A stretch of DNA of 64,000 bases from an uncultured Bacteroidales bacterium (GTDB lineage: Bacteria > Bacteroidota > Bacteroidia > Bacteroidales > JAAYJT01), in the NCBI GenBank assembly GCA_964550455.1, contig CAZJZG010000005.1, forward strand, positions 15,008 to 79,007, in the 5' to 3' direction. Position 1 is the stretch's first letter. Each line of letters starts with the position of its first letter. The notes under the pieces are model-generated. The model had not been told where the DNA came from, did not search any database, and saw only the letters and a list, made by a program, of their open reading frames with translations. Positions 36,593-57,746 of the stretch are shown here, one piece after another. The position numbers were made by a program, and so were the translations under genes.

Positions 36593-38321
36593 GCAGGTCA
36601 ATAAGCTCATTGATTGCATCTTGCTCAGCAATATTTTTTTTCATCAGTGTCTGTCCTTTATACAGGGCAACTCGCCCGTTTCCTTGTCCTACATAGCCAT
36701 AATCAGCATCAGCCATTTCGCCCGGACCATTAACAATACAGCCCATTACTGCAATTTTCAACCCTTTCAGATGCGAAGTAGCCTGTTTTACCCTTTCAAG
36801 TGCAGTTTCAAGGTCATACTGCGTTCTGCCACAACCCGGACAAGCTATATATTCAGTTTGTGTAATACGGCTACGGGTAGCCTGCAATACTCCAAATGCA
36901 ATTCTGGCTAATGTCTGTTTGTCAATTTTATTATTTCTTAGATAGATACCATCGCATAAACCATCATTTAGCAAGGGAGCTAATCTTATGGCTGAACGAA
37001 TGGCAAATCTGTAAATATTATTGTCAGCTTCAGCAAAAGACAATAATACAGGCAGCCTGAAATTGTTTTTATCAATAAAATCAATTATTTTACGGGTCTT
37101 ATGTATTGATGACAAATTACTTAGCTCAAAAACCGGAATGATCTTACTTGTTTTAATTTCTGGAATTTTCAAGAAATCCATTATCGTAGAGGATAAAGGA
37201 TCGAGTAGTAAGTAGTTGATTCCCTGATTTTTGAAGTCGTAATCGGAATTTGTTGTAATTTTTCCTGCATTTCCTTCCGTAATGAGATCTTCGTTAATAG
37301 TGTGAACTTGTGAATCTCCCCAGATTACAACCGGTATATTTCCTCCACCAATATTTTCAATAGTTTTGCTGTGGCGGCGCCGGTAATCAATCAGCGAAGC
37401 GTCAGTAAAAACATCTGAGTTATAAACTATTACACCGTTACCGGTTCTTGGTTCTTCGAAAAATGATAATATTTCCCTGGCAACCGGAATTTCATTTTCG
37501 GGGGCTTCAGTAAGCGAAACTCTGATGGTATTGCCAATACCATCGGCAAGTAGAGTTCCTATACCTGCAGCCGATTTAATTCGTCCTTCAAGCCCATTTC
37601 CTGCCTCAGTAACACCAAGATGTATTGGATACTGCATCTGTTCTGCGAACATTTTTTGAACCAGAAGTCGTGTGGCTGCTACCATTACCCTTACATTGCT
37701 TGATTTCATTGAGAGTACAAGCTGATGAAATTCTGCATTATGACACATCCTCACAAATTCCATTGCCGATTCAGCCATGCCTGCAGGCGTATCACCGTAG
37801 CGCTGCATTATCCTCCCTGACAATGACCCGTGATTTACCCCAATACGTATGGCGGTGCCGTTTTGCCGGCAAATATCAAGCAGAGGTTTAAGTCGTTCGG
37901 AAATCCTAAGTAATTCCGTATTGTATTCATCATCAGAGTATTGGAGGTTTATCTGTCGTTTGTCAACGAAATTTCCGGGATTTATCCTTACTTTTTCTAC
38001 CAGTCCGGCAGCAGTTTCAGCAACTGAAGGACTAAAATGTACATCGGCTATCAGTGGGATATTGATACCGGCATCACGAAGTTCTTTTTTTATATTAGCA
38101 AGGTTCTTAGCTTCTTTATGGTTACGAGCAGTTATTCTGATTAGAGCACAACCGGCTTCAGTAAGCCTTTTACATTGCTCTGCAGTAGCCTTAGTGTCGG
38201 ATGTTGAAGTATTGGTCATTGACTGAACACTTACAGGTTCGCTACCTCCAATAACTACACTCCCGATCTTTACCGGTCGGGGATTCCATATAAGGGATGA
38301 ATTTTGATCAAATGAATTCAT
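36561..38321 (-). CDS. ispG: 4-hydroxy-3-methylbut-2-en-1-yl diphosphate synthase, long form with insert domain
   Basis: 586 aa. It has PVSVQSMTNT, RINPGNF, and the C-terminal 4Fe-4S ligand region ACPGCGRT ... MGCIVNGPGE. It converges with and overlaps the lipid kinase gene by 32 nt. Confidence 0.9.
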   Translation of the reverse strand: MNSFDQNSSLIWNPRPVKIGSVVIGGSEPVSVQSMTNTSTSDTKATAEQCKRLTEAGCALIRITARNHKEAKNLANIKKELRDAGINIPLIADVHFSPSVAETAAGLVEKVRINPGNFVDKRQINLQYSDDEYNTELLRISERLKPLLDICRQNGTAIRIGVNHGSLSGRIMQRYGDTPAGMAESAMEFVRMCHNAEFHQLVLSMKSSNVRVMVAATRLLVQKMFAEQMQYPIHLGVTEAGNGLEGRIKSAAGIGTLLADGIGNTIRVSLTEAPENEIPVAREILSFFEEPRTGNGVIVYNSDVFTDASLIDYRRRHSKTIENIGGGNIPVVIWGDSQVHTINEDLITEGNAGKITTNSDYDFKNQGINYLLLDPLSSTIMDFLKIPEIKTSKIIPVFELSNLSSIHKTRKIIDFIDKNNFRLPVLLSFAEADNNIYRFAIRSAIRLAPLLNDGLCDGIYLRNNKIDKQTLARIAFGVLQATRSRITQTEYIACPGCGRTQYDLETALERVKQATSHLKGLKIAVMGCIVNGPGEMADADYGYVGQGNGRVALYKGQTLMKKNIAEQDAINELIDLLKAENQWKYP

Positions 38322-38362
38322 TTATGGTGTTCTGAATTTTTCAGCAAAAATAAATCAACTGC

Positions 38363-40153
38363 TTATAACTGCGATAGAAATTCAACAAGTCCGGTGTCGG
38401 AATTTGTAAGATTCAATTTGCGCCTCAGGCGGGTACGGGCAACTTCAATACTTCTGATTGATTGTCCGGTAATTGATGCAATTTCCTTGGTGCTCATATT
38501 TAGACGTAAAAAAGCACAAAGTCTGCGGTCGTTTGTCGTAAGATCCGGATTTATAAGGTTGAGTTTATCGTAATATTCATTATGAACCTGCTGAAACCTT
38601 ACCTCAAACTCATTCCATACAGCAGTATTCCGGGTTTTCTTTAAACCCGATACAAAACCGAGAATAAGATGCTGATCTTCTTTGCGCAATGTTTTACTAA
38701 AGTTTTGAAGCTTTTGCGTAATTTCATTCACAAGCTCATTTTGTTGAATTTGATGCATTACATTGGTAGTCAGCTCTTTATTTCGTATTTCCAATTCCTG
38801 ACCAAGAGTGGTTTTTTCGAGTTCAAGGTTTTTTGATACCAGTTGCACATTCTTTTTTTCAAGTTTTAGTCTTTTCATTCTACCCCATAGCAGGAAATAT
38901 AAAAGGGTAAGAATTATAACTGTAAGAAACAATACAAGGCCTGCAATAAAATATCTTAGTTCTTTTCGTTTCTGATTCGCTTGCCTTATAAGGTCCTGCT
39001 GTTCAAACTGCGCTGTAAGCTCAATACGTGTTAATTCTTTCAGAGCCTCATCCTTGTTCATGATATCATTTAATTCCATTAGAAGAATATGATATTTTAA
39101 AGCCGAGTCGCTTTGATTCAGAAGCTGATAATTATTATAAATATCGTTGCATATTTCGGCTTTAAGTGAATTATTTCCAATCTCCTTGGCAATTGAAAAT
39201 GCTTTGTTCAGATATTCCCTGGCTTCTTGATTGTTGTTTAGAATTGTATGATATCGGGCTATCATTTTATACGAGGAAGCTTCGCCGGCACGATCTTTAT
39301 TCTTTAATCTTATTTTCAATGCTTCTTCCATAGGCGATAAAGCTTCTGTGGTCTTATTCATATCCAATAAAACCGAACTTAGATTATTGAACAGCATTGC
39401 AAAAATTTCACTTTCTTCTGAGGTTTTTTCTGCAAGTTCAATCCCTTTGTTGTAGTATTCAATGGCTTTGTTTACATCTTTTTCGCGCTGATAGATAATT
39501 CCGAGATTATTATAAATATGTATTGATTCTTTATCGAACGATTTTGAAGGGTCTGCTGATTCAGCCTGACGGAAGGATTCAAGAGCGCCGAGAAAATATT
39601 TTTCTGCCTGCTCAAATTGATTGAGCTTTATATTTATAGCTCCTAGATTTATCTGTGCGAACGCAATGGGGATTACATTTTCAATCCCATGCTGCAGCTC
39701 GATATATTTCTCAAAATAGTTTACTGCAATAGGGAATAGTCCTTGCGCAAACGAAACATTACCCAGGTTGAACAAAGCATAGGCAACAGATCTCTTGTTC
39801 CCTGTTTTTTCAGCAATTTCAAGGGCTTGCTGAGAGTATTGCAATGAGAGTGACAGATCACTTTTTTCGTGTATCCTTGATATTTCAACAAGTATGTTGA
39901 CTTTTGAAGTGTCGTGCCTTGTGGTTTCGAGCAGATGATATAGCGAATCCAGCCTGCTTTGATTGTTTGCTGCTGTGTGCGAACAAACCCAAATCAGAAT
40001 TGAAACAATAATGAATGTTTTATTTGAAATTCTTTTCAACAATAGCGTTTCTGATTTCAGCAAAAATACAAAAAGTTTATGCTGTTTGAACCATAAAACA
40101 GGCAATGTGAAAATGTATTCAAATAAAAAAGAATTTGTAATTTTATAGCGCAA
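38363..40153 (-). CDS. membrane-anchored TPR-repeat regulator with C-terminal LuxR-type HTH
   Basis: 596 aa. Multiple TPR-like repeats are followed by the TM helix YFIAGLVLFLTVIILTLLYFLLWG and a coiled coil. The C-terminal RRLCAFLRLNMSTKEIASITGQSIRSIEVARTRLRRKL is a LuxR/GerE HTH. The start is uncertain: TTG at 40153 or a downstream TTG near 40040. Confidence 0.7.
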   Translation of the reverse strand: MRYKITNSFLFEYIFTLPVLWFKQHKLFVFLLKSETLLLKRISNKTFIIVSILIWVCSHTAANNQSRLDSLYHLLETTRHDTSKVNILVEISRIHEKSDLSLSLQYSQQALEIAEKTGNKRSVAYALFNLGNVSFAQGLFPIAVNYFEKYIELQHGIENVIPIAFAQINLGAINIKLNQFEQAEKYFLGALESFRQAESADPSKSFDKESIHIYNNLGIIYQREKDVNKAIEYYNKGIELAEKTSEESEIFAMLFNNLSSVLLDMNKTTEALSPMEEALKIRLKNKDRAGEASSYKMIARYHTILNNNQEAREYLNKAFSIAKEIGNNSLKAEICNDIYNNYQLLNQSDSALKYHILLMELNDIMNKDEALKELTRIELTAQFEQQDLIRQANQKRKELRYFIAGLVLFLTVIILTLLYFLLWGRMKRLKLEKKNVQLVSKNLELEKTTLGQELEIRNKELTTNVMHQIQQNELVNEITQKLQNFSKTLRKEDQHLILGFVSGLKKTRNTAVWNEFEVRFQQVHNEYYDKLNLINPDLTTNDRRLCAFLRLNMSTKEIASITGQSIRSIEVARTRLRRKLNLTNSDTGLVEFLSQL

Positions 40154-40165
40154 AACAATTTTAAA

Positions 40166-40243
40166 TAAAAAAGGCGACTTGCGCCGCCTTGAATGTCTTC
40201 ACAACGGAAAAAATCCTTATTGTGAATTGCTTTAAATTGTGCT
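40166..40243 (-). ncRNA. tracrRNA: predicted tracrRNA (about 75 nt)
   Basis: The minus strand reads ACAAUUUAAAGCAAUUCACAA UAAGGAUUUUUUCCGUU GUGAAGACAUUCAA GGCGGCGCAAGUCGCC UUUUUU. The first 21 nt are complementary to nt 2-23 of the CRISPR repeat in GUUGUG orientation (14 bp + 1-nt bulge + 7 bp). A nexus-like AAGG..CCGUU, a small hairpin UGAA-GACA-UUCA, and a GNRA-capped terminator hairpin with U6 (40167-40188) follow. Confidence 0.8.
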
Positions 40244-40244
40244 G

Positions 40245-40252
40245 CAAATATA
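40245..40252 (-). promoter_or_regulatory. -7 promoter box TATATTTG for the tracrRNA
   Basis: Perfect TAnnTTTG (extended TATATTTGCA, as upstream of rplS) ending 4-5 nt before the first anti-repeat nucleotide. A TTTG lies 23 nt upstream, longer than the usual spacing. Confidence 0.6.
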
Positions 40253-40279
40253 AGTAATAATATTTTAATACTTTGCAAA

Positions 40280-43200
40280 ATGATAAAAAAAATTTTAGGA
40301 CTTGATCTTGGTACCAGTTCTATTGGCTGGGCTTTAATAGCTGAAAACAATGATACAGTGGATATTATTGGAATAGGAACCAGAATTATACCATTGAGTA
40401 CAGATGAAAAGGATGAGTTCTCAGCAGGGAACCAGATTTCAAAAAATCAAAAAAGAACTGCTAAACGAACACAGAGGAAAGGATACGATCGCTATCAGTT
40501 ACGAAGAAAGGCACTTGTGTCATTACTTAAATCACTTGATGTTTTACCGGAAGAAGATCTGATGAAACTTGATGCTTTGGAATTATGGAAAATAAGGGCT
40601 AACGCAGTAAACCAAAAAATAGAACTAAAGGAATTTGCAAGAGTTTTGCTTCATTTAAACCAGAAACGTGGATACAAGAGCAGTAGAAGTGATGCAAATC
40701 TTGGAAAGAAAGATACTGAATATGTTGCCGAAGTTAAAGGAAGACACCAATTAATTAAAGAGCAGGGTATTACTATAGGGCAGAAATTTTATTCTGAATT
40801 GATGAACAATAGCAATTACAGGATAAAACAGCAGGTGTTTCCAAGAGAGGCATATATTGAAGAATTTGATTTGATATGTGAAGAACAAAAAAAGCACTAT
40901 CCTGAAATAATAACTGATGAACTTGTTGAAAAACTCAAAAATAAAATTATTTATTATCAGCGTAAATTGAAATCCCAGAAGGGATTAATCAGTATTTGTG
41001 AGTTTGAAGGATTCTTTAAAACTAATAAAAAAGGCAAAGACGTATTTGTAGGACCAAGAGTTGCACCACGTAGTTCTCCGTTGTTTCAGGTTTGTAAAAT
41101 ATGGGAAACAATTAATATTCTGACATTGAAAAACAGAAGGGGAGAAAAATACGAGTTTACCTCTGATGATAAGCAGAAAATATTTGAATATCTTGACAAC
41201 AATGAGAAACTCACTGCTACTGAGCTATACAAAATTATAGGAATTAATAAAAACGATGGTTGGTATCATAACAAACAAATTGAAAGAGGTATTCAGGGTA
41301 ACTTGACTAAAGTTGAAATTCTGAAAGTTCTAAATACTAACAATGAGCATTTGAATTTTGAATTAAGAGTTGATGAAACAGATGAGGAAGCCTTTCTGAT
41401 TGATAAGAATACCGGAGAGATAAAAGAACAAAAGAGTAGAAAAACCATATGTTCAGATATAGAAAAACAGCCGCTTTACCAACTGTGGCATGTAATTTAT
41501 TCTATAAGCGATACAGATGAATGTGAAAATGCTTTGATTAAAAAATTTGGATTTGACTCCGAAACAGCGAAGCGCTTAACTGATATTGATTTCAGAAAAG
41601 GAGGTTTCGGAAACAAATCAAGCAAAGCAATGAGAAAAATACTTCCCTATCTTATTGAGGGCTACATGTATAGCGATGCATGTTCCTTTGCTGGTTATAA
41701 TCATTCCGGTAGCTTGACAACTGACGAGAATTTAAAAAGAGTTTTAATTGATAAGCTGGCTTTACTTCCTAAAAATAGTTTGCGTCAGCCGGTTGTTGAG
41801 AAAATCCTTAATCAAATGATAAATCTTGTTAATGCTATAATTGAAAAATATGGTAAGCCTGATGAGATAAGAATAGAACTTGCACGAGAATTAAAGCAGA
41901 GCAAGGAAGAGCGTAACGATACTTTTAAATTCATGAACAAACGGGAAAAAGAAAATGAAATAATAAGAAAAAGACTAACTGAAGAATATAATGTAAGGGC
42001 TACCAGGAATAATGTAATAAAATTCAGATTGTTTGAGGAAATTGAAAATGAAGATAGCAAAATAAACGCTATGTGTATTTACTGCGGTAAGCATTTTGGA
42101 ATAACTGATGCACTTTCTGGAGATAATGTAGATGTTGAACATATTATTCCAAAATCGTTGCTATTTGATGATTCCCAAAGCAATAAAACACTTTCTCACC
42201 GCCATTGCAATGAGGCAAAGGGCAACCGGACTGCCTATGATTATATGTCGTCAAAAGGAAAAGAAGAGTTTGACGAGTATCTACACCGGGTTGAAATGTT
42301 ATATAAAAACCGGATAATTGGGAAAACTAAACGTGATAAACTCCTGATGCCGCAAAATAAAATCCCTTTGGATTTTATTGAAAGACAGTTACGTGAAACA
42401 CAATATATTTCCAAAAAGGCAAGAGAGATACTTATGCAGGTTTGCCGCAATGTTTGGAGTACCAGTGGTAGTGTTACTGAATATCTGAGAACAATATGGG
42501 GGTGGAATGACGTATTGCATAATTTGCAATTCTCTTTACACAAAGAACATGGATTAACTGAAATAGTTGATTGGGAAAGTAACGGACAATTGCACACACG
42601 TGAAGTAATAAAAGGATGGAATAAACGCGAGGATCACAGACATCATGCCATTGATGCACTTGTAATTGCATGTACAAAGCAAGGATTTATACAGCGTATA
42701 AATAATCTTAGCAGTAAAGGAAATAGAGAAGAAATGTATGAACTGATTAGAGATATGCCTTTTGAATTAAGAGAAAACCTAAGCTTGCTTGAGAAATATC
42801 TGATAATGCAAAGACCATTCACTACAGCAGAGGTTGAAAATAAAGCTGCTGAAATCCTTATTTCGTTTAAACCTGGAAAGAAAGTTGCAACTACCGGCAA
42901 ACGAATAATTAAGAAAAATGGTAGAAAAAAAGTTGTGCAAACTGGTATTATAGTGCCCCGTGGTTCTTTAAGTGAGGAAAGTGTTTATGGCAGAATAAAA
43001 GCATTAAGTACTGATTTTAAGAGTGGTATGCTTGAAAAACATCCTGCAAAATTTTTGTTTAATAATCCTCATCTGATTTTTAAACCTTATATTAAAAATC
43101 TGGTTGAAGCACGCCTGGCTGAATATAATGATGATGTGAAAAAGGCACTTGCTTCATTAAAAAAGAAACCAATATTTCTTGATAAAGATAATAGCGTTGA

Positions 43201-43984
43201 GCTTACATATGCAACATGCTTTTCTGATGAATATGTTTTAAAATATCCGATTGAAAGTATTAAACCTGGAGACGTAAAATATATTGTTGATAAACAAGTT
43301 CAAAAACTTGTTAAGCAACGACTTGACCAATATGATGGTAAATCAAAAGAAGCATTTAAAGAGCCGTTGTGGTTTAATGAAGAAAAGCAAATTGCAATAA
43401 AAACTGTAAGATGTTTTACAGGTTTAAGCTCCACTGAACCAATTAAATATGATGAAGCAGGAAATCCCATAGGTTTTGTTCTACCCGGAAATAACCATCA
43501 TGTAGCGTTTTATATTAATAGTGAGGGAAAAATTGAAGAACATATATGCACTTTTTGGCATGCCGTTGATCGTAAGCGTTTTGGCTTACCTGTAATTATA
43601 AAAGATCCCAAAGTTGTTTGGGATAAAATTATTACTGATAATATTGAATTACCTGCTTCATTCATTGAAAAATTGCCTGCGGACGGATGGATCTTTATGG
43701 AAAGCATGCAGCAGAATGAAATGTTTGTGTTGGGATTGGATAAGGACATTGTAACAGAGGCTCTTAGACTAAATGATAAAAAAACTATTTGTAACAACTT
43801 ATACAGGATTCAGAAGCTTGCTAAGAGTAATTACATGTTTAGGCATCATTTGGAAACTTCTGTTAACGATTCAGAAGATAAAAAAATAACTAAGAAATAT
43901 ATAAATATTCAAAGTAAAGGGGCTTACATATCAAATAATCCCATAAAAATCACTATTGATTATTTAGGCGATATGTACCTGTAA
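40280..43984 (+). CDS. cas9: CRISPR-associated endonuclease Cas9, type II-C
   Basis: 1234 aa. Motifs: RuvC-I MIKKILGLDLGTSSIGWALI (Asp9); Arg-rich bridge helix KRTAKRTQRKGYDRYQLRRKAL; RuvC-II DEIRIELARELK. The HNH motif is DVEHIIPKS...NKTLSHRHCNEAKGNRTAYDY (His621, codon 42140-42142). RuvC-III is HRHHAIDALVIA (His788/His789/Asp792). Only cas1 and cas2 follow (no csn2, no cas4). Confidence 0.97.
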   Translation: MIKKILGLDLGTSSIGWALIAENNDTVDIIGIGTRIIPLSTDEKDEFSAGNQISKNQKRTAKRTQRKGYDRYQLRRKALVSLLKSLDVLPEEDLMKLDALELWKIRANAVNQKIELKEFARVLLHLNQKRGYKSSRSDANLGKKDTEYVAEVKGRHQLIKEQGITIGQKFYSELMNNSNYRIKQQVFPREAYIEEFDLICEEQKKHYPEIITDELVEKLKNKIIYYQRKLKSQKGLISICEFEGFFKTNKKGKDVFVGPRVAPRSSPLFQVCKIWETINILTLKNRRGEKYEFTSDDKQKIFEYLDNNEKLTATELYKIIGINKNDGWYHNKQIERGIQGNLTKVEILKVLNTNNEHLNFELRVDETDEEAFLIDKNTGEIKEQKSRKTICSDIEKQPLYQLWHVIYSISDTDECENALIKKFGFDSETAKRLTDIDFRKGGFGNKSSKAMRKILPYLIEGYMYSDACSFAGYNHSGSLTTDENLKRVLIDKLALLPKNSLRQPVVEKILNQMINLVNAIIEKYGKPDEIRIELARELKQSKEERNDTFKFMNKREKENEIIRKRLTEEYNVRATRNNVIKFRLFEEIENEDSKINAMCIYCGKHFGITDALSGDNVDVEHIIPKSLLFDDSQSNKTLSHRHCNEAKGNRTAYDYMSSKGKEEFDEYLHRVEMLYKNRIIGKTKRDKLLMPQNKIPLDFIERQLRETQYISKKAREILMQVCRNVWSTSGSVTEYLRTIWGWNDVLHNLQFSLHKEHGLTEIVDWESNGQLHTREVIKGWNKREDHRHHAIDALVIACTKQGFIQRINNLSSKGNREEMYELIRDMPFELRENLSLLEKYLIMQRPFTTAEVENKAAEILISFKPGKKVATTGKRIIKKNGRKKVVQTGIIVPRGSLSEESVYGRIKALSTDFKSGMLEKHPAKFLFNNPHLIFKPYIKNLVEARLAEYNDDVKKALASLKKKPIFLDKDNSVELTYATCFSDEYVLKYPIESIKPGDVKYIVDKQVQKLVKQRLDQYDGKSKEAFKEPLWFNEEKQIAIKTVRCFTGLSSTEPIKYDEAGNPIGFVLPGNNHHVAFYINSEGKIEEHICTFWHAVDRKRFGLPVIIKDPKVVWDKIITDNIELPASFIEKLPADGWIFMESMQQNEMFVLGLDKDIVTEALRLNDKKTICNNLYRIQKLAKSNYMFRHHLETSVNDSEDKKITKKYINIQSKGAYISNNPIKITIDYLGDMYL

Positions 43985-44019
43985 ATGTTGAGCAACTTGA
44001 TTTTTATTTGATATTAGCT

Positions 44020-44922
44020 ATGATAAAAAGAACACTTTATTTTGGAAATCCCTGCACCCTTAAGAAAAAGGACATGCAAATGTATGTTGATTTTTCAGAA
44101 AAAGAAAATAAAACACCTGCCGTCATTCCCATAGAAGATATTGGTATTGTGGTACTTGATAGTAATCAGATAGTTATCTCACACGCTTTGATTTCAGCTT
44201 TGATGGATAATAATTGTGCGCTCATTAGTTGTAATGATAAGCATTTGCCATATGGCTTAATGCTTCCAATGTTTTCTCATCATGCTTTTACACAGAAAAT
44301 GCATAATCAAATTAACTCCTCTTTGCCTTTGCGTAAAAATCTGTGGAAGCAGACTGTGATAGCTAAAATTTCAAATCAGGCTGCATTATTAAGAAAAAAC
44401 GGTAAAAACGATAATAAAATGCAATACTATATCAGGCAGGTAAAAAGCGGTGATCCTGAAAATATTGAAGGACGGGCAGCAGCTTATTACTGGGATAATC
44501 TGTTCAATCATTATTTCTCTTTTTACAGAAGCATTGAAGGTGGTTATCCAAATTCTTTCCTTAACTATGGATATGCTGTTTTACTTGCTGTTATTGCAAG
44601 ATCAATTGTTGCAAGCGGTATGATACCATCATTCGGCATACATCACCGCAATAAATACAACCCATGGTGTCTGGCGTCTGATATCATGGAACCATACCGT
44701 CCGTTTGTGGATAAAGTAATTCTCAATATCATGGAAGAGTTTCCTGACAAGGAAGAGCTTACACCTGAAATAAAAAGGCATATTCTTCAGATTCCTGCAA
44801 TGGATATTGTTATTGACCGAAATAACAGCCCTTTGATGATAGGTACACAGCGTACTACTGCATCTTTGGCTGATTGTTTTGAAGGAACTGCACGCCGCAT
44901 ATTATACCCTGAATTAACGTGA
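44020..44922 (+). CDS. cas1: CRISPR-associated endonuclease Cas1 (type II)
   Basis: The ORF track opens at TTG 44008. The ATG at 44020 gives MIKRTLYFGNPCTL, the usual type II Cas1 N-terminus. IEGRAAAYYW, NSFLNYGYAVL and GIHHRNKYNPWCLASDIMEPYRP are present. Confidence 0.95.
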   Translation: MIKRTLYFGNPCTLKKKDMQMYVDFSEKENKTPAVIPIEDIGIVVLDSNQIVISHALISALMDNNCALISCNDKHLPYGLMLPMFSHHAFTQKMHNQINSSLPLRKNLWKQTVIAKISNQAALLRKNGKNDNKMQYYIRQVKSGDPENIEGRAAAYYWDNLFNHYFSFYRSIEGGYPNSFLNYGYAVLLAVIARSIVASGMIPSFGIHHRNKYNPWCLASDIMEPYRPFVDKVILNIMEEFPDKEELTPEIKRHILQIPAMDIVIDRNNSPLMIGTQRTTASLADCFEGTARRILYPELT

Positions 44923-45266
44923 GTACAAAATATTTGAGCCGCTTAAATCAGTATAGAGTTTTGTGGGTTTTTGTGTTTTTTGATTTGCCAACTGCTACTA
45001 AGAAAGACAGGAAGAATTATGCGCAGTTCAGAAAAAATCTTCTGAAAAACGGATTTGCAATGCTTCAATATTCAATTTATATCAGGCATTGTAGTAGTCG
45101 TGAAAATGCCGATGTTCATATAAAACGTGTTAAATCTTTTTTAGCTCCGAAAGGAGAAATCATTATTTTTACATTAACTGATAAACAGTTTGGAATGATG
45201 GAATTTTTTCGTAGCAGTGAAATTTCATCCAGACCCAAAACTCCTCAGCAACTTGAATTGTTTTAA
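44919..45266 (+). CDS. cas2: CRISPR-associated endoribonuclease Cas2
   Basis: 115 aa. The GTG start overlaps the cas1 stop (GTGA at 44919-44922). YRVLWVFVFFDLPT ... FRKNLLKNGFAMLQYSIYIRHC fits the Cas2 ferredoxin-like pattern with the conserved Asp. Confidence 0.9.
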   Translation: MSTKYLSRLNQYRVLWVFVFFDLPTATKKDRKNYAQFRKNLLKNGFAMLQYSIYIRHCSSRENADVHIKRVKSFLAPKGEIIIFTLTDKQFGMMEFFRSSEISSRPKTPQQLELF

Positions 45267-45276
45267 TACAGGAAAT

Positions 45277-45314
45277 GAAAAAACCCTTTATAAATTATTC
45301 ATAAAGGGTTTTTT
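45277..45314. terminator. bidirectional rho-independent terminator between cas2 and the array
   Basis: GAAAAAA CCCTTTAT aaattattc ATAAAGGG TTTTTT: an 8-bp stem flanked by an A-tract and a T-tract, so it can terminate transcripts from either side. Confidence 0.75.
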
Positions 45315-45396
45315 CAAGTGATTTTTCTTTTCAGTCAGACTTCGCAATCATTTGAAATACAGCTCGTTAAGCCGTGTTATGATGTGCGAATCCGGT

Positions 45397-45404
45397 CAAA
45401 GATA
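45397..45404 (-). promoter_or_regulatory. repeat-internal -7 promoter box TATCTTTG (example in repeat 1; present in repeats 1-25)
   Basis: Nt 23-30 of the repeat in crRNA sense match the Bacteroidetes -7 consensus TAnnTTTG perfectly. A partial -33-like TTG sits at repeat nt 2-4. Function as a promoter is inferred, not shown. Confidence 0.45.
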
Positions 45405-47281
45405 CAATTTAAAAGCAATTCACAACTTATAATATCTTTGATCGTTACTGATGTAGGATGTGCGAATCCGGTCAAAGATACAATTTAAAAGCAATTCACA
45501 ACGGATGATGAAGATGAGATACAAGAAGAAATGATGTGCGAATCCGGTCAAAGATACAATTTAAAAGCAATTCACAACTAAATTTTTTGAGCTAAGTTTA
45601 AGCTGTCAGATGTGCGAATCCGGTCAAAGATACAATTTAAAAGCAATTCACAACTAGTTTTATTGATTAGCCTTTCAGGATGTAGATGTGCGAATCCGGT
45701 CAAAGATACAATTTAAAAGCAATTCACAACTACACGCTGGTTGAATCTTGTCCTGAATCAGATGTGCGAATCCGGTCAAAGATACAATTTAAAAGCAATT
45801 CACAACGATTACAAGATGTTCTGGCAATTACTTGGAGATGTGCGAATCCGGTCAAAGATACAATTTAAAAGCAATTCACAACATACTTCGGCAGCGCATG
45901 TTCCGGAAATTCGATGTGCGAATCCGGTCAAAGATACAATTTAAAAGCAATTCACAACATATGTTCCGGTTTCCTGTGCCTTGAAATAGATGTGCGAATC
46001 CGGTCAAAGATACAATTTAAAAGCAATTCACAACTGAACAGCACCCGATGCTTTGCGACCTACAGATGTGCGAATCCGGTCAAAGATACAATTTAAAAGC
46101 AATTCACAACGATTCCCTTATCAGCACCTTGTTTTAATTTGATGTGCGAATCCGGTCAAAGATACAATTTAAAAGCAATTCACAACGACGGTGCCGCTCC
46201 ATCGGCGTATGCGGCAGGATGTGCGAATCCGGTCAAAGATACAATTTAAAAGCAATTCACAACCTGCACGCTTCAGCACTACCTGCTCATCATGATGTGC
46301 GAATCCGGTCAAAGATACAATTTAAAAGCAATTCACAACGTATGTTTGATAATACCGAATACCTGTTTTGATGTGCGAATCCGGTCAAAGATACAATTTA
46401 AAAGCAATTCACAACGAAAAGCACTTATGACACCGCCGGCATAATGATGTGCGAATCCGGTCAAAGATACAATTTAAAAGCAATTCACAACTATCGAAGC
46501 ACAGGACAAGGAGTGTCTTAAGATGTGCGAATCCGGTCAAAGATACAATTTAAAAGCAATTCACAACAATCTCGTTTCAATTTTGAAACTTGCTGCAGAT
46601 GTGCGAATCCGGTCAAAGATACAATTTAAAAGCAATTCACAACAGGTTTTGAGTTTTAGCGTTTACGTATTTTGATGTGCGAATCCGGTCAAAGATACAA
46701 TTTAAAAGCAATTCACAACCCTTGCGCATCGCCTCTCAGTCGTACATCCGATGTGCGAATCCGGTCAAAGATACAATTTAAAAGCAATTCACAACACGCA
46801 ACCAGATGTTTATGACTCTTAACAGGATGTGCGAATCCGGTCAAAGATACAATTTAAAAGCAATTCACAACTTGGGGGTATTCACAGTATCAATGTTATG
46901 AGATGTGCGAATCCGGTCAAAGATACAATTTAAAAGCAATTCACAACGTATGTTTGATAATACCGAATACCTGTTTTGATGTGCGAATCCGGTCAAAGAT
47001 ACAATTTAAAAGCAATTCACAACCTTTGATAAGTTTTTAAAGCCAAGCCTTCCGATGTGCGAATCCGGTCAAAGATACAATTTAAAAGCAATTCACAACT
47101 TCTGTATCTAGTTTTGCAACTTTTTTCAAGATGTGCGAATCCGGTCAAAGATACAATTTAAAAGCAATTCACAACTTCTGTATCTAGTTTTGCAACTTTT
47201 TTCAAGATGTGCGAATCCGGTCAAAGATACAATTTAAAAGCAATTCACAACAGCCATATTCTTTTCCTCCTTTTTTTATTC

Positions 47282-47327
47282 GATGTGCGAATCCGGTCAA
47301 AGAGTCAATTTAAAAGCAATTCACAAC
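47282..47327 (-). repeat. degenerate terminal CRISPR repeat (cas-distal end)
   Basis: It differs from the consensus at 47304-47305 (+ strand AGAGTCAATT versus AGATACAATT). In crRNA sense TGTATCTTTG becomes TGACTCTTTG. Confidence 0.95.
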
Positions 47328-47361
47328 TGAGAAAGAACTGACAAAACTGAAGTTTTACAAT

Positions 47362-57167: not shown

Positions 57168-57746
57168 ATGAATAAAATTCTGATAATACTCGGTCATCCG
57201 GTAAAAGATACCTTTAGTGATAAATTAACTACAGCATACATTGAAGGAGCTTTAAGCTCAAAAGCTGAAATAAAGAGCCTGAAATTAAATCAGTTAAAGT
57301 TCGACATCAATTTCAGCAGTGGCTACAGAGGCAATCAGGAGCTTGAACCCGATCTGGTAATGGCTCAGGAATTGATAACATGGGCTGACCATCTGGTTTT
57401 CTTTTATCCAAACTGGTGGGCAACATTTCCTGCACTGCTAAAAGGTTTCATTGACAGGACTTTCCTGCCCGGTTTTGCGTTCAGATATACCGGAAAAGGA
57501 CGCGCACATGATAAACTGCTAATGGGAAAAACCGCCAGACTCTTTGTTACCATGGACAACTCGCCTTTTTATTATAGGTGGGTACTCGGCAGACCCGGAC
57601 ATCATGCCATGAAAAAAGCTTTTTTACAGTTTTGTGGGGTCAATCCGGTAAATATTTCAACAATTGGTCCGATCAAAGGCTCAAATGAAAAGAAAAGAGA
57701 AAAATGGCTTAAAAAGGTTAAACGACTGGGAGAGAGGCAGATATAA
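57168..57746 (+). CDS. NAD(P)H dehydrogenase (quinone)/flavodoxin-like fold family protein
   Basis: 192 aa. MNKILIILGHP..., FFYPNWWATFPALLKGFIDR is typical of the Flavodoxin_2 family. Confidence 0.75.
   Translation: MNKILIILGHPVKDTFSDKLTTAYIEGALSSKAEIKSLKLNQLKFDINFSSGYRGNQELEPDLVMAQELITWADHLVFFYPNWWATFPALLKGFIDRTFLPGFAFRYTGKGRAHDKLLMGKTARLFVTMDNSPFYYRWVLGRPGHHAMKKAFLQFCGVNPVNISTIGPIKGSNEKKREKWLKKVKRLGERQI

What the first reader, a model, noticed from the sequence alone, without database searches (positions are those of the whole stretch)
40166..40252. Predicted tracrRNA transcribed divergently from cas9, with its own TAnnTTTG promoter and a GNRA-capped terminator
The + strand at 40220-40240 (TTGTGAATTGCTTTAAATTGT) copies the first 23 nt of the repeat in crRNA sense, minus one T. 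The minus-strand transcript therefore carries the anti-repeat ACAAUUUAAAGCAAUUCACAA. It would pair with crRNA as 14 bp + a single-U bulge + 7 bp, plus a terminal G-U, which is the bulged duplex geometry typical of Cas9 guides. Downstream come UAAGG-AUUUUUU-CCGUU (compare the S. pyogenes nexus AAGGCUAGUCCGUU) and a small hairpin UGAA-GACA-UUCA. The terminator is GGCGGC-GCAA-GUCGCC + U6 (40167-40188). A perfect -7 box TATATTTG (40245-40252, minus strand) puts the start at about 40240-40243, the first anti-repeat nucleotide. The RNA would need no 5' trimming and is only ~75 nt. The cas9 ATG (40280) is ~37-40 nt from the inferred tracrRNA start on the opposite strand, so the two promoters must overlap.
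Basis: partly seen in the sequence, partly recalled or inferred. Interest (0 to 1): 0.7.

Follow-up and report, generated by a model that had tools for sequence, protein, structure and literature searches.

The report
tracrRNA gene beside a Bacteroidota cas9
This is very likely a genuine tracrRNA gene, the small RNA that pairs with CRISPR RNAs and loads them into Cas9, and it belongs to a Bacteroidota family already described and tested in vitro, so it is a correct but ordinary annotation.

Summary
The + strand at 40220-40240 copies repeat positions 2-23 (crRNA sense) minus one T. It is the only significant off-array repeat match in the window. The minus strand carries TATATTTG (40252-40245), the anti-repeat, UAAGG-loop-CCGUU, and an 8-bp GCAA-capped hairpin followed by U6.

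The locus is type II-C: cas9, cas1, cas2, then 26 repeats of 46 nt. A profile built from relatives, with the window left out, finds only this site (E 8e-13). The same module occurs once in 74 of 80 related cas9 loci, usually upstream and divergent. Repeat and anti-repeat covary. The 3-bp nexus shows compensatory changes. Terminators keep their structure across 56 different sequences. A TAnnTTTG box sits at a fixed distance in 58 of 75 loci, and the window has the commonest spacing. That places the start at A40240, giving an RNA of about 71-74 nt.

The scaffold is known: Faure 2018 'branch4', and Gasiunas 2020 clade X (Cca1, Cga, Cme1, Orh), whose sgRNAs cut DNA in vitro.

Three sub-claims are not supported. 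The UGAA/UUCA hairpin is weak. The 1-nt bulge is not conserved. No cas9 promoter was found, so promoter overlap is unproven.

Expression in vivo is untested.

The parts
40245..40252 (-). Bacteroidota sigma-A -7 box TATATTTG of the tracrRNA gene
   Evidence: Read directly from the sequence. An exact TAnnTTTG lies 14-31 nt upstream of the nexus in 58 of 75 loci, and the commonest spacing (25 nt) is the one seen in the window. Background is 0.019 per 25 nt. The box position of -12 to -5 comes from PMC9723704.
40167..40240 (-). Predicted tracrRNA, about 71-74 nt. The start at A40240 is inferred and the 3' end lies in the U-run.
   Evidence: The leave-window-out profile hits 40232-40188(-) at E 8.4e-13, and the next hit in the window is E 0.061. 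The fold is -23.1 kcal/mol with z -5.1. Both ends are inferred, not mapped.
40219..40240 (-). Anti-repeat ACAAUUUAAAGCAAUUCACAAU, which pairs with repeat positions 1-23
   Evidence: Across 38 loci, 490 of 494 lower-stem cells pair, and positions 8, 10, 12 and 13 show compensatory changes.
40206..40218 (-). AA junction plus nexus stem-loop GGA-UUUUU-UCC
   Evidence: The three pairs form in 43 of 43 distinct sequences. Changes seen are G-C to A-U (1 sequence) and A-U to U-A (6 sequences), and a fourth pair appears in 9. The AA junction and GG stem base match the general type II rule in PMC6546382.
40189..40205 (-). Conserved nexus-terminator linker GUUGUGAAGACAUUCAA
Evidence: Nearly invariant in 75 loci. 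The window is the only one with G at 40197. The stretch can pair with the anti-repeat 3' half in the free RNA.
40167..40190 (-). Intrinsic terminator: 8-bp stem, GCAA tetraloop, U6
   Evidence: Found by the terminator scan. A hairpin followed by a T-run is present in 67 of 74 relatives, with 56 distinct hairpin sequences.
40280..43984 (+). cas9 (1234 aa)
   Evidence: TIGR01865 E 2.9e-150. It belongs to a Bacteroidota family of about 1230 aa. The N-terminus is 39% identical to the clade X Cga Cas9.
44008..44922 (+). Type II cas1. The start may lie later; sister contigs-282 aa.
   Evidence: TIGR03639 E 2e-84; gene calls in sister contigs.
44919..45266 (+). cas2
   Evidence: TIGR01573 E 4.4e-20.
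45381..47328 (-). CRISPR array: 26 repeats of 46 nt and 25 spacers of 30-31 nt, with the crRNA sense on the minus strand
   Evidence: The strand follows from complementarity to the anti-repeat and from the repeat-embedded TATCTTTG boxes on the minus strand.

Best explanation
The segment 40167-40252 on the minus strand is the tracrRNA gene of a type II-C CRISPR-Cas9 locus from a Bacteroidota genome.

How it is made: RNA polymerase with the Bacteroidota primary sigma factor recognises TATATTTG (40252-40245). It starts at or within a few nucleotides of A40240 and stops at the GCAA-capped hairpin and U-run (40190-40167). The product is about 71-74 nt.

How it works: the first 22 nt (the anti-repeat) pair with the first 23 nt of each repeat in crRNAs transcribed from the minus strand of the array. 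The duplex consists of a G-U wobble next to the spacer, 14 bp, a one-U bulge and 7 bp. Directly 3' of the duplex come an AA junction, a 3-bp nexus stem-loop (GGA/UCC), a conserved single-stranded linker (GUUGUGAAGACAUUCAA) and the terminator hairpin. Together these form the scaffold that Cas9 (40280-43984) binds.

What is shown here: the sequence features, their conservation and covariation in related loci, and identity of the core to published clade X tracrRNAs.

What is inferred: transcription, the exact ends, any RNase III processing, and Cas9 binding in this organism.
For: - Locus type: cas9, type II cas1 and cas2 are present, with no csn2 or cas4 model hit. The array has 46-nt repeats.
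- Uniqueness: this is the only significant off-array repeat match in the window. It is also the only hit of a profile built without the window (E 8.4e-13).
- Conservation: the profile hits once in 74 of 80 related cas9 loci. Of these, 67 are upstream of cas9 on the opposite strand.
- Covariation between repeat and anti-repeat: position 8 is A-U in 15 loci and U-A in 23, and 490 of 494 cells pair.
- Nexus: compensatory changes in the stem.
- Terminator: the hairpin plus T-run is kept across 56 distinct sequences.
- Promoter: a TAnnTTTG box at conserved spacing in 58 of 75 loci. With the box at -12 to -5, the start falls at 40240.
- Independence from the neighbour gene: that gene has no homolog next to any of the 80 loci, and it has its own TAnnTTTG box after the terminator.
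- Published match: tracrRNAs of Cca1, Cga, Cme1 and Orh carry CACAAUAAGGAUUAUUCCGUUGUGAAAACAU, and their sgRNAs gave DNA cleavage in vitro. Faure 2018 describes the same conserved lower stem, AA junction, GG nexus and nexus-terminator junction.
Against: - There are no expression data for this organism or for the window.
- Rfam has no matching family, so the annotation rests on my own profile and on the literature.
- The window Cas9 is only about 39% identical, over its N-terminal region, to the nearest ortholog compared here that was tested with this scaffold. Function with this particular Cas9 is therefore inferred.
- The window deviates from the consensus in two ways: a 5-nt rather than 4-nt nexus loop, and A to G at 40197 in the linker.
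- In F. columnare and F. psychrophilum the native tracrRNA was likewise unvalidated.
Confidence: 0.9

Rival explanations
1. The tracrRNA is real but its ends differ from those predicted. It might start at another promoter and exist as a longer form, or be trimmed by RNase III inside the duplex, so that 'no 5' trimming' and '~75 nt' would be wrong.
For: The start is only inferred from the box position. 17 of 75 loci lack an exact box in the expected place. S. pyogenes tracrRNA has two promoters and is cut by RNase III (PMC6546382).
Against: The box-to-nexus spacing is tightly clustered at 24-27 nt or 18-20 nt, tracking anti-repeat length. No second minus-strand box lies between 40252 and 40936.
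Confidence: 0.15
2. Besides guiding Cas9, the divergent and closely packed tracrRNA and cas9 start regions couple their expression, through promoter interference or tracrRNA-guided autoregulation of cas9.
For: Only 27 nt separate the tracrRNA box from the cas9 ATG. In most relatives the module lies within about 30-60 nt of the ATG. No separate canonical cas9 promoter was found.
Against: Nothing is conserved on the + strand in the gap. Distances range from 29 to 465 nt, and in 6 loci the gene sits after cas9. No target-like match to the anti-repeat was looked for or seen near the ATG.
Confidence: 0.08
3. The segment is a decayed, untranscribed repeat remnant that only looks like an anti-repeat.
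For: Anti-repeats are thought to derive from repeats. A stray 18-nt repeat copy does exist in L012 at -325.
Against: A remnant would not keep a promoter box, a nexus with compensatory changes, a conserved linker and a structurally conserved terminator across 74 loci.
Confidence: 0.02
4. The segment is a 5' leader, attenuator or small RNA belonging to the downstream TPR-protein gene (38363-40153, minus strand).
For: It is on the same strand and lies immediately upstream of that gene.
Against: That gene has no homolog in the flanks of any of the 80 related loci. It has its own TATTTTTG box at 40068-40061, after the terminator. Its likely start is about 125 nt downstream of the terminator.
Confidence: 0.02

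Closest known systems
Clade X ('Cca1-type') tracrRNAs/sgRNAs of Bacteroidota Cas9 orthologs (Cca1, Cga, Cme1, Orh) in Gasiunas et al. 2020, PMC7606464, Supplementary Data 2
   Same: The repeats are 45-50 nt and start GUUGUGAxUUGC. The core CACAAUAAGGAUUAUUCCGUUGUGAAAACAUU is the same. Cga has the same type of GNRA-capped terminator (AAGGCGGGGCAACUCGCCUUUUU). sgRNAs built on this scaffold gave DNA cleavage in vitro.
   Different: The window has one extra U in the nexus loop and G instead of A at 40197. It has a 1-nt bulge, whereas clade X duplexes are described as usually fully complementary. Its Cas9 is 1234 aa against 1399-1535 aa, is about 39% identical over the N-terminal region to Cga, and lacks a REC segment of about 150 aa. 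The published tracrRNA predictions did not define the start; those of Cga and Orh include the promoter box.
'branch4' type II-C tracrRNA alignment from Bacteroides species (Faure et al. 2018, PMC6546382, Fig. 4)
   Same: The lower stem is conserved, the junction is AA, the nexus stem starts with GG, and the nexus-terminator junction is unusually conserved.
   Different: That paper's sequences could not be compared directly because the figure is not held. It does not discuss a promoter.
S. pyogenes tracrRNA (Rfam RF02348)
   Same: Same module order: anti-repeat, A-rich junction, short G-C nexus followed by CCGUU, then terminator. Compare AAGGCUAGUCCGUU with AAGGAUUUUUUCCGUU.
   Different: There is no Rfam hit even at E 10. 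The window RNA has one clear 3' hairpin where S. pyogenes has two, and a long 15-bp lower stem with a 1-nt bulge instead of a short lower stem and a larger bulge. The system is type II-C, with crRNAs probably made from promoters inside the repeats.
Type II-C loci of Flavobacterium (F. columnare, F. psychrophilum) and N. meningitidis
   Same: The gene order is tracrRNA-cas9-cas1-cas2-array. The array is transcribed from repeat-embedded promoters towards the cas-proximal, variable end.
   Different: In the window the repeat promoter is a full TAnnTTTG box (TATCTTTG). That is neither the Neisseria-type box nor the bare TTG noted for F. columnare. The Flavobacterium tracrRNAs were reported as not experimentally validated.

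Membership tests
tracrRNA (type II CRISPR-Cas) | An anti-repeat complementary to the repeat of the cognate array, oriented so that its 3' end pairs with the spacer-proximal end of the repeat | tested here: met
   22 of 23 positions match with a 1-nt bulge. The repeat and anti-repeat covary across 38 loci.
tracrRNA (type II CRISPR-Cas) | Encoded within or next to a cas9-cas1-cas2 locus | tested here: met
   The predicted start is 40 nt from the cas9 ATG. The same placement is seen in 67 of 80 related loci.
tracrRNA (type II CRISPR-Cas) | A nexus stem-loop 1-3 nt after the duplex, with an A or AA junction and a stem that starts with G | tested here: met
   AA followed by GGA/UCC. All sequences pair, with compensatory changes. 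The rule is taken from PMC6546382.
tracrRNA (type II CRISPR-Cas) | A Rho-independent terminator at the 3' end | tested here: met
tracrRNA (type II CRISPR-Cas) | It is transcribed, binds Cas9 and is required for interference | not testable with these tools
   There are no RNA data for this source. The only indirect support is in vitro activity of the same scaffold with other Cas9 orthologs.
Clade X / Cca1-type tracrRNA scaffold | The conserved core CACAAUAAGGAUUAUUCCGUUGUGAAAACAUU between the anti-repeat and the terminator | tested here: met
   The window matches except for one inserted U and one A-to-G change. The leave-one-out profile gives E 8.4e-13.
Clade X / Cca1-type tracrRNA scaffold | Association with long (45-50 nt) repeats and a clade X Cas9 | tested here: inconclusive
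   The 46-nt repeat meets the first condition. The Cas9 is a shorter relative, about 39% identical over the N-terminus to Cga. No phylogeny was built to place it inside or beside clade X.
Rfam tracrRNA RF02348 | A match to the covariance model at the gathering score | tested here: not met
   No hit at the gathering threshold in the window, and none at E up to 10 in 40000-40400.
Bacteroidota sigma-A promoter | TAnnTTTG at -12 to -5 relative to a mapped transcription start | tested here: inconclusive
   The motif is present and conserved at a fixed spacing, but no start site has been mapped. A single motif is not significant in the window.

The most novel reading that the evidence does not exclude
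The conserved linker GUUGUGA (40205-40199) is a copy of the first 7 nt of the CRISPR repeat. In the free tracrRNA it is predicted to pair with the lower-stem half of the anti-repeat (UCACAAU) and enclose the nexus. This would be a closed, self-masked conformer that leaves only the 5' 14 nt of the anti-repeat as a toehold and must be opened by crRNA or Cas9. If real, it would be a built-in conformational gate on guide assembly in this large Bacteroidota family. The helix can form in 41 of 43 distinct sequences but is almost invariant. One possible compensatory change was seen (L015), and a few sequences break it.
Probability: 0.12. Interest if true: 0.45.

Novelty: new member of a known kind. 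Interest (0 to 1): 0.2.

Why it matters
The result completes the annotation of a type II-C locus that looks intact. It defines the guide scaffold needed to test a fairly compact (1234 aa) relative of the clade X Cas9 enzymes.

The comparative data add one modest point that I did not find stated in the papers read. In this family the tracrRNA has its own TAnnTTTG box at a fixed distance from the nexus. That predicts a primary transcript starting at the first anti-repeat nucleotide. The published clade X tracrRNA predictions included the box within the RNA, and the Flavobacterium studies called tracrRNA transcription unresolved.

Nothing here changes how Cas9 systems are understood.

Tried and rejected
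- Rfam, at gathering thresholds and at E up to 10: no tracrRNA family matches, so Rfam could not be used for membership.
- PDB sequence search: the nearest solved Cas9s are distant (E 1e-55 and weaker, partial coverage). No structure could show what the linker does. The CbCas9 paper was not found by the library search.
Rejected as a supported element.
- The intramolecular helix UCACAAU/GUUGUGA: invariant, so covariation cannot test it. Kept only as the novel reading.
- Sister contigs with 94% identical Cas9: the 126-nt region is identical, but neighbouring DNA is 97.5-99.5% identical, so this says nothing about selection.
- A cas9 promoter on the + strand: no exact box and nothing conserved. 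Only a near-match, TACTTTGC at 40269-40276, which would place the start inside the ATG.
- Full-text search for the core sequence: nothing relevant. It was found only in a supplement.
- Second anti-repeat candidates: 57196-57211 (16 nt, E 0.11) covers repeat positions 22-37, has no scaffold beside it, and is taken as chance.
- No covariance model was built, because the sequence profile already gave an unambiguous single hit.

Full report
WHAT IS THERE

The window carries a compact CRISPR-Cas locus. ORF 40280-43984 matches Cas9 (TIGR01865, E 2.9e-150). ORF 44008-44922 matches type II Cas1 (TIGR03639, E 2e-84). ORF 44919-45266 matches Cas2. None of these ORFs matches a csn2 or cas4 model, and cas2 is followed directly by the array. 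This is the type II-C layout.

Downstream is an array of 25 identical 46-nt repeats plus one degenerate terminal repeat, at 45381-47328, with 30-31-nt spacers. On the + strand the repeat ends ...AAAGCAATTCACAAC. Its reverse complement, GTTGTGAATTGCTTTTAAATTGTATC..., is the crRNA sense.

CHECKING THE OBSERVATION

The + strand at 40220-40240 equals repeat positions 2-23 in crRNA sense, with one T of the T4 run missing.
- It is the best off-array match to the repeat (E 0.007). The runner-up, at 57196-57211, scores E 0.11, covers repeat positions 22-37 and has no scaffold next to it.
- The 21-mer, allowing up to 3 mismatches, occurs once. About 0.02 occurrences are expected by chance.
- TATATTTG lies at 40252-40245 on the minus strand.
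- The terminator scan independently reports the 8-bp hairpin with a GCAA loop and a T-run at 40190-40171.

One TAnnTTTG is not significant by itself: the window has 109 against about 85 expected, and 25 of those lie inside the repeats.

COMPARATIVE EVIDENCE

Cas9 belongs to a large family of about 1230 aa in Bacteroidota. An alignment of 14 members (A1) retrieved 80 loci from reference genomes, with Cas9 41-69% identical to the window's.
- Most loci show cas9-cas1-cas2-array, with 46-47-nt repeats ending in ...GAAAGCAA(A/T)TCACAAC on the cas9 strand.
- In most of the 37 loci tested, the best off-array repeat match lies 40-130 nt upstream of the cas9 ATG, in the same orientation as in the window.
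- The RNA downstream of that match is strikingly conserved...CACAA|UAAGGAUUAUUCCGUUGUGAAAACAUUYAAG, then a variable G+C hairpin and a U-run.
- A profile of this core hits exactly once in 75 of 81 sources. In 67 loci it is upstream of cas9 on the opposite strand. In 6 loci it lies between cas9 and cas1. In one locus it is inverted. Four of the six loci without a hit (L003, L030, L032, L071) have little or no sequence upstream of cas9.
- A profile rebuilt without the window finds only 40232-40188(-) in the whole window, at E 8.4e-13. The next hit is E 0.061.

STRUCTURE TESTS

- Duplex: across 38 loci with both partners known, 490 of 494 lower-stem cells pair. Position 8 is A-U in 15 loci and U-A in 23. 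Positions 10, 12 and 13 also switch on both sides. G1-U is universal.
- Nexus: its three pairs form in all 43 distinct sequences. Changes are G-C to A-U once and A-U to U-A six times, and a fourth pair is gained in nine.
- Terminator: a hairpin of -7 kcal/mol or better followed by at least four T is present in 67 of 74 relatives, from 56 different hairpin sequences. The window's GGCGGC-GCAA-GUCGCC recurs in L005, L007 and L070.
One A-U pair is broken in 13 of 43 sequences, and the hairpin cannot form in the cas9-cas1 subgroup. I do not count it as an element.

PROMOTER AND ENDS

An exact TAnnTTTG lies 14-31 nt upstream of the nexus in 58 of 75 loci, against 0.019 expected per 25 nt. The commonest spacing, 25 nt (15 loci), is the window's. 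In Flavobacterium psychrophilum the sigma-A box occupies -12 to -5 (PMC9723704). Applied here, position +1 is A40240, the first anti-repeat nucleotide. With a 3' end in the U-run at 40172-40167, the RNA is about 71-74 nt. Both ends are inferences.

INDEPENDENCE FROM THE NEIGHBOUR GENE

The TPR-protein ORF downstream on the same strand has no homolog beside any of the 80 loci. A separate TATTTTTG box at 40068-40061 follows the terminator. The first 68 codons of that ORF contain no Met, and sister contigs call it 38 codons shorter. Its probable start is therefore about 125 nt beyond the tracrRNA.

WHAT IS NOT SUPPORTED

- The bulge appears in about 8 of 38 loci. Gasiunas et al. describe clade X duplexes as typically fully complementary. 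It is a local feature, not a conserved geometry.
- No cas9 promoter can be named. There is no exact + strand box between 37361 and 45433. The 27-nt gap is not conserved among relatives. The near-match TACTTTGC (40269-40276) would start transcription inside the ATG. 'The promoters must overlap' remains a guess.

COMPARISON WITH WHAT IS KNOWN

- Faure et al. 2018 (PMC6546382) aligned type II-C tracrRNAs from Bacteroides species ('branch4'). They noted a conserved lower stem, an AA junction, a GG-based nexus and an unusually conserved nexus-terminator junction. That describes this RNA.
- Gasiunas et al. 2020 (PMC7606464, Supplementary Data 2) list tracrRNAs and sgRNAs for clade X orthologs: Cca1, Cga, Cme1 and Orh, 1399-1535 aa, with 45-50-nt repeats. 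All carry the identical core CACAAUAAGGAUUAUUCCGUUGUGAAAACAU. Cga has the same style of terminator. These sgRNAs supported DNA cleavage in vitro.
- The window's Cas9 is shorter and about 39% identical to Cga over the N-terminal region. Cga aligns twice to window residues 100-243, which indicates an extra REC segment of about 150 aa in the larger enzymes.
- The gene order tracrRNA-cas9-cas1-cas2-array, and transcription of the array from repeat promoters towards the cas-proximal end, are described for Flavobacterium. There the native tracrRNA was still unvalidated and its transcription called unresolved.
- Rfam has no matching family.

VERDICT

This is a genuine tracrRNA gene by every test available without RNA data, and a new member of a known family. 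The modest addition is the conserved, precisely spaced -7 box, which predicts a primary transcript that begins at the anti-repeat. [quoted passage not shown] Because both strands are invariant, the data cannot test it.

Noticed in passing
window 45397-47229 (minus strand, inside every repeat); degenerate repeat 47283-47328: Each of the 25 intact repeats carries TATCTTTG (TAnnTTTG) in crRNA sense, at repeat positions 23-30. With the box at -12 to -5, each crRNA would start at repeat position 35, as GAUUCGCACAUC followed by the spacer. The cas-distal degenerate repeat has lost the box (GATAC changed to GAGTC). The motif CAAAGATAC recurs in the repeats of many related loci.
   Followed up: partly
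window 46340-46369 = 46948-46977; 47100-47129 = 47176-47205: Two spacers are each present twice. One pair is adjacent and the other is eight units apart. This suggests internal duplication or recombination within the array.
   Followed up: no
window 40199-40205 with 40219-40225 (minus strand): The tracrRNA linker GUUGUGA repeats the first 7 nt of the CRISPR repeat. It pairs with the anti-repeat 3' half in the predicted fold of the free RNA (-23.1 kcal/mol, z -5.1). The helix is conserved but shows no informative variation.
   Followed up: partly
L013, L015, L026, L041, L061, L069 (about 3.8 kb after the cas9 start); L068:443-484: In six related loci the tracrRNA gene sits between cas9 and cas1. 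There it has a 4-bp nexus (GGUC/GACC), a shorter anti-repeat and its own TAnnTTTG box. In L068 it is upstream but on the cas9 strand.
   Followed up: partly
window 40253-40279 and 40269-40276: No canonical + strand promoter box precedes cas9 for 2.9 kb. The only near-match, TACTTTGC, is so close to the ATG that the mRNA would be leaderless or would start inside the start codon.
   Followed up: partly
window 40061-40068 (minus strand) and about 40039: The TPR/histidine-kinase-like gene downstream of the tracrRNA appears to have its own TATTTTTG box. It probably starts at a TTG about 38 codons inside the listed ORF, followed by a signal-peptide-like stretch (KRISNKTFIIVSILIWVCS).
   Followed up: partly
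window Cas9 residues 100-243 (about 40577-41008): The larger clade X Cas9 Cga (1403 aa) aligns twice to this stretch. The 1400-1535-aa enzymes therefore seem to carry a duplicated or inserted REC segment of about 150 aa that the 1234-aa protein lacks.
   Followed up: no
L081-L084 against window 37280-46000: Syntenic sister contigs (Cas9 94% identical) show a mosaic of 97-100% identical DNA broken by blocks of 73-90% identity: 39600-39999, 41200-41599, 42200-42599 and 43800-44399. This pattern suggests recombination within cas9 and its neighbours. Their repeat differs by one base in the 3' part, outside the duplex.
   Followed up: no
L012:3676-3693: An isolated 18-nt perfect copy of the repeat start lies 325 nt upstream of cas9, next to tRNA-like sequence. 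It is additional to the true tracrRNA core, which sits at -53.
   Followed up: no
window 37119-37132: Fourteen nucleotides of spacer 3 (at 45579) match the ispG gene (E 0.004 in the spacer search). This is probably chance.
   Followed up: no
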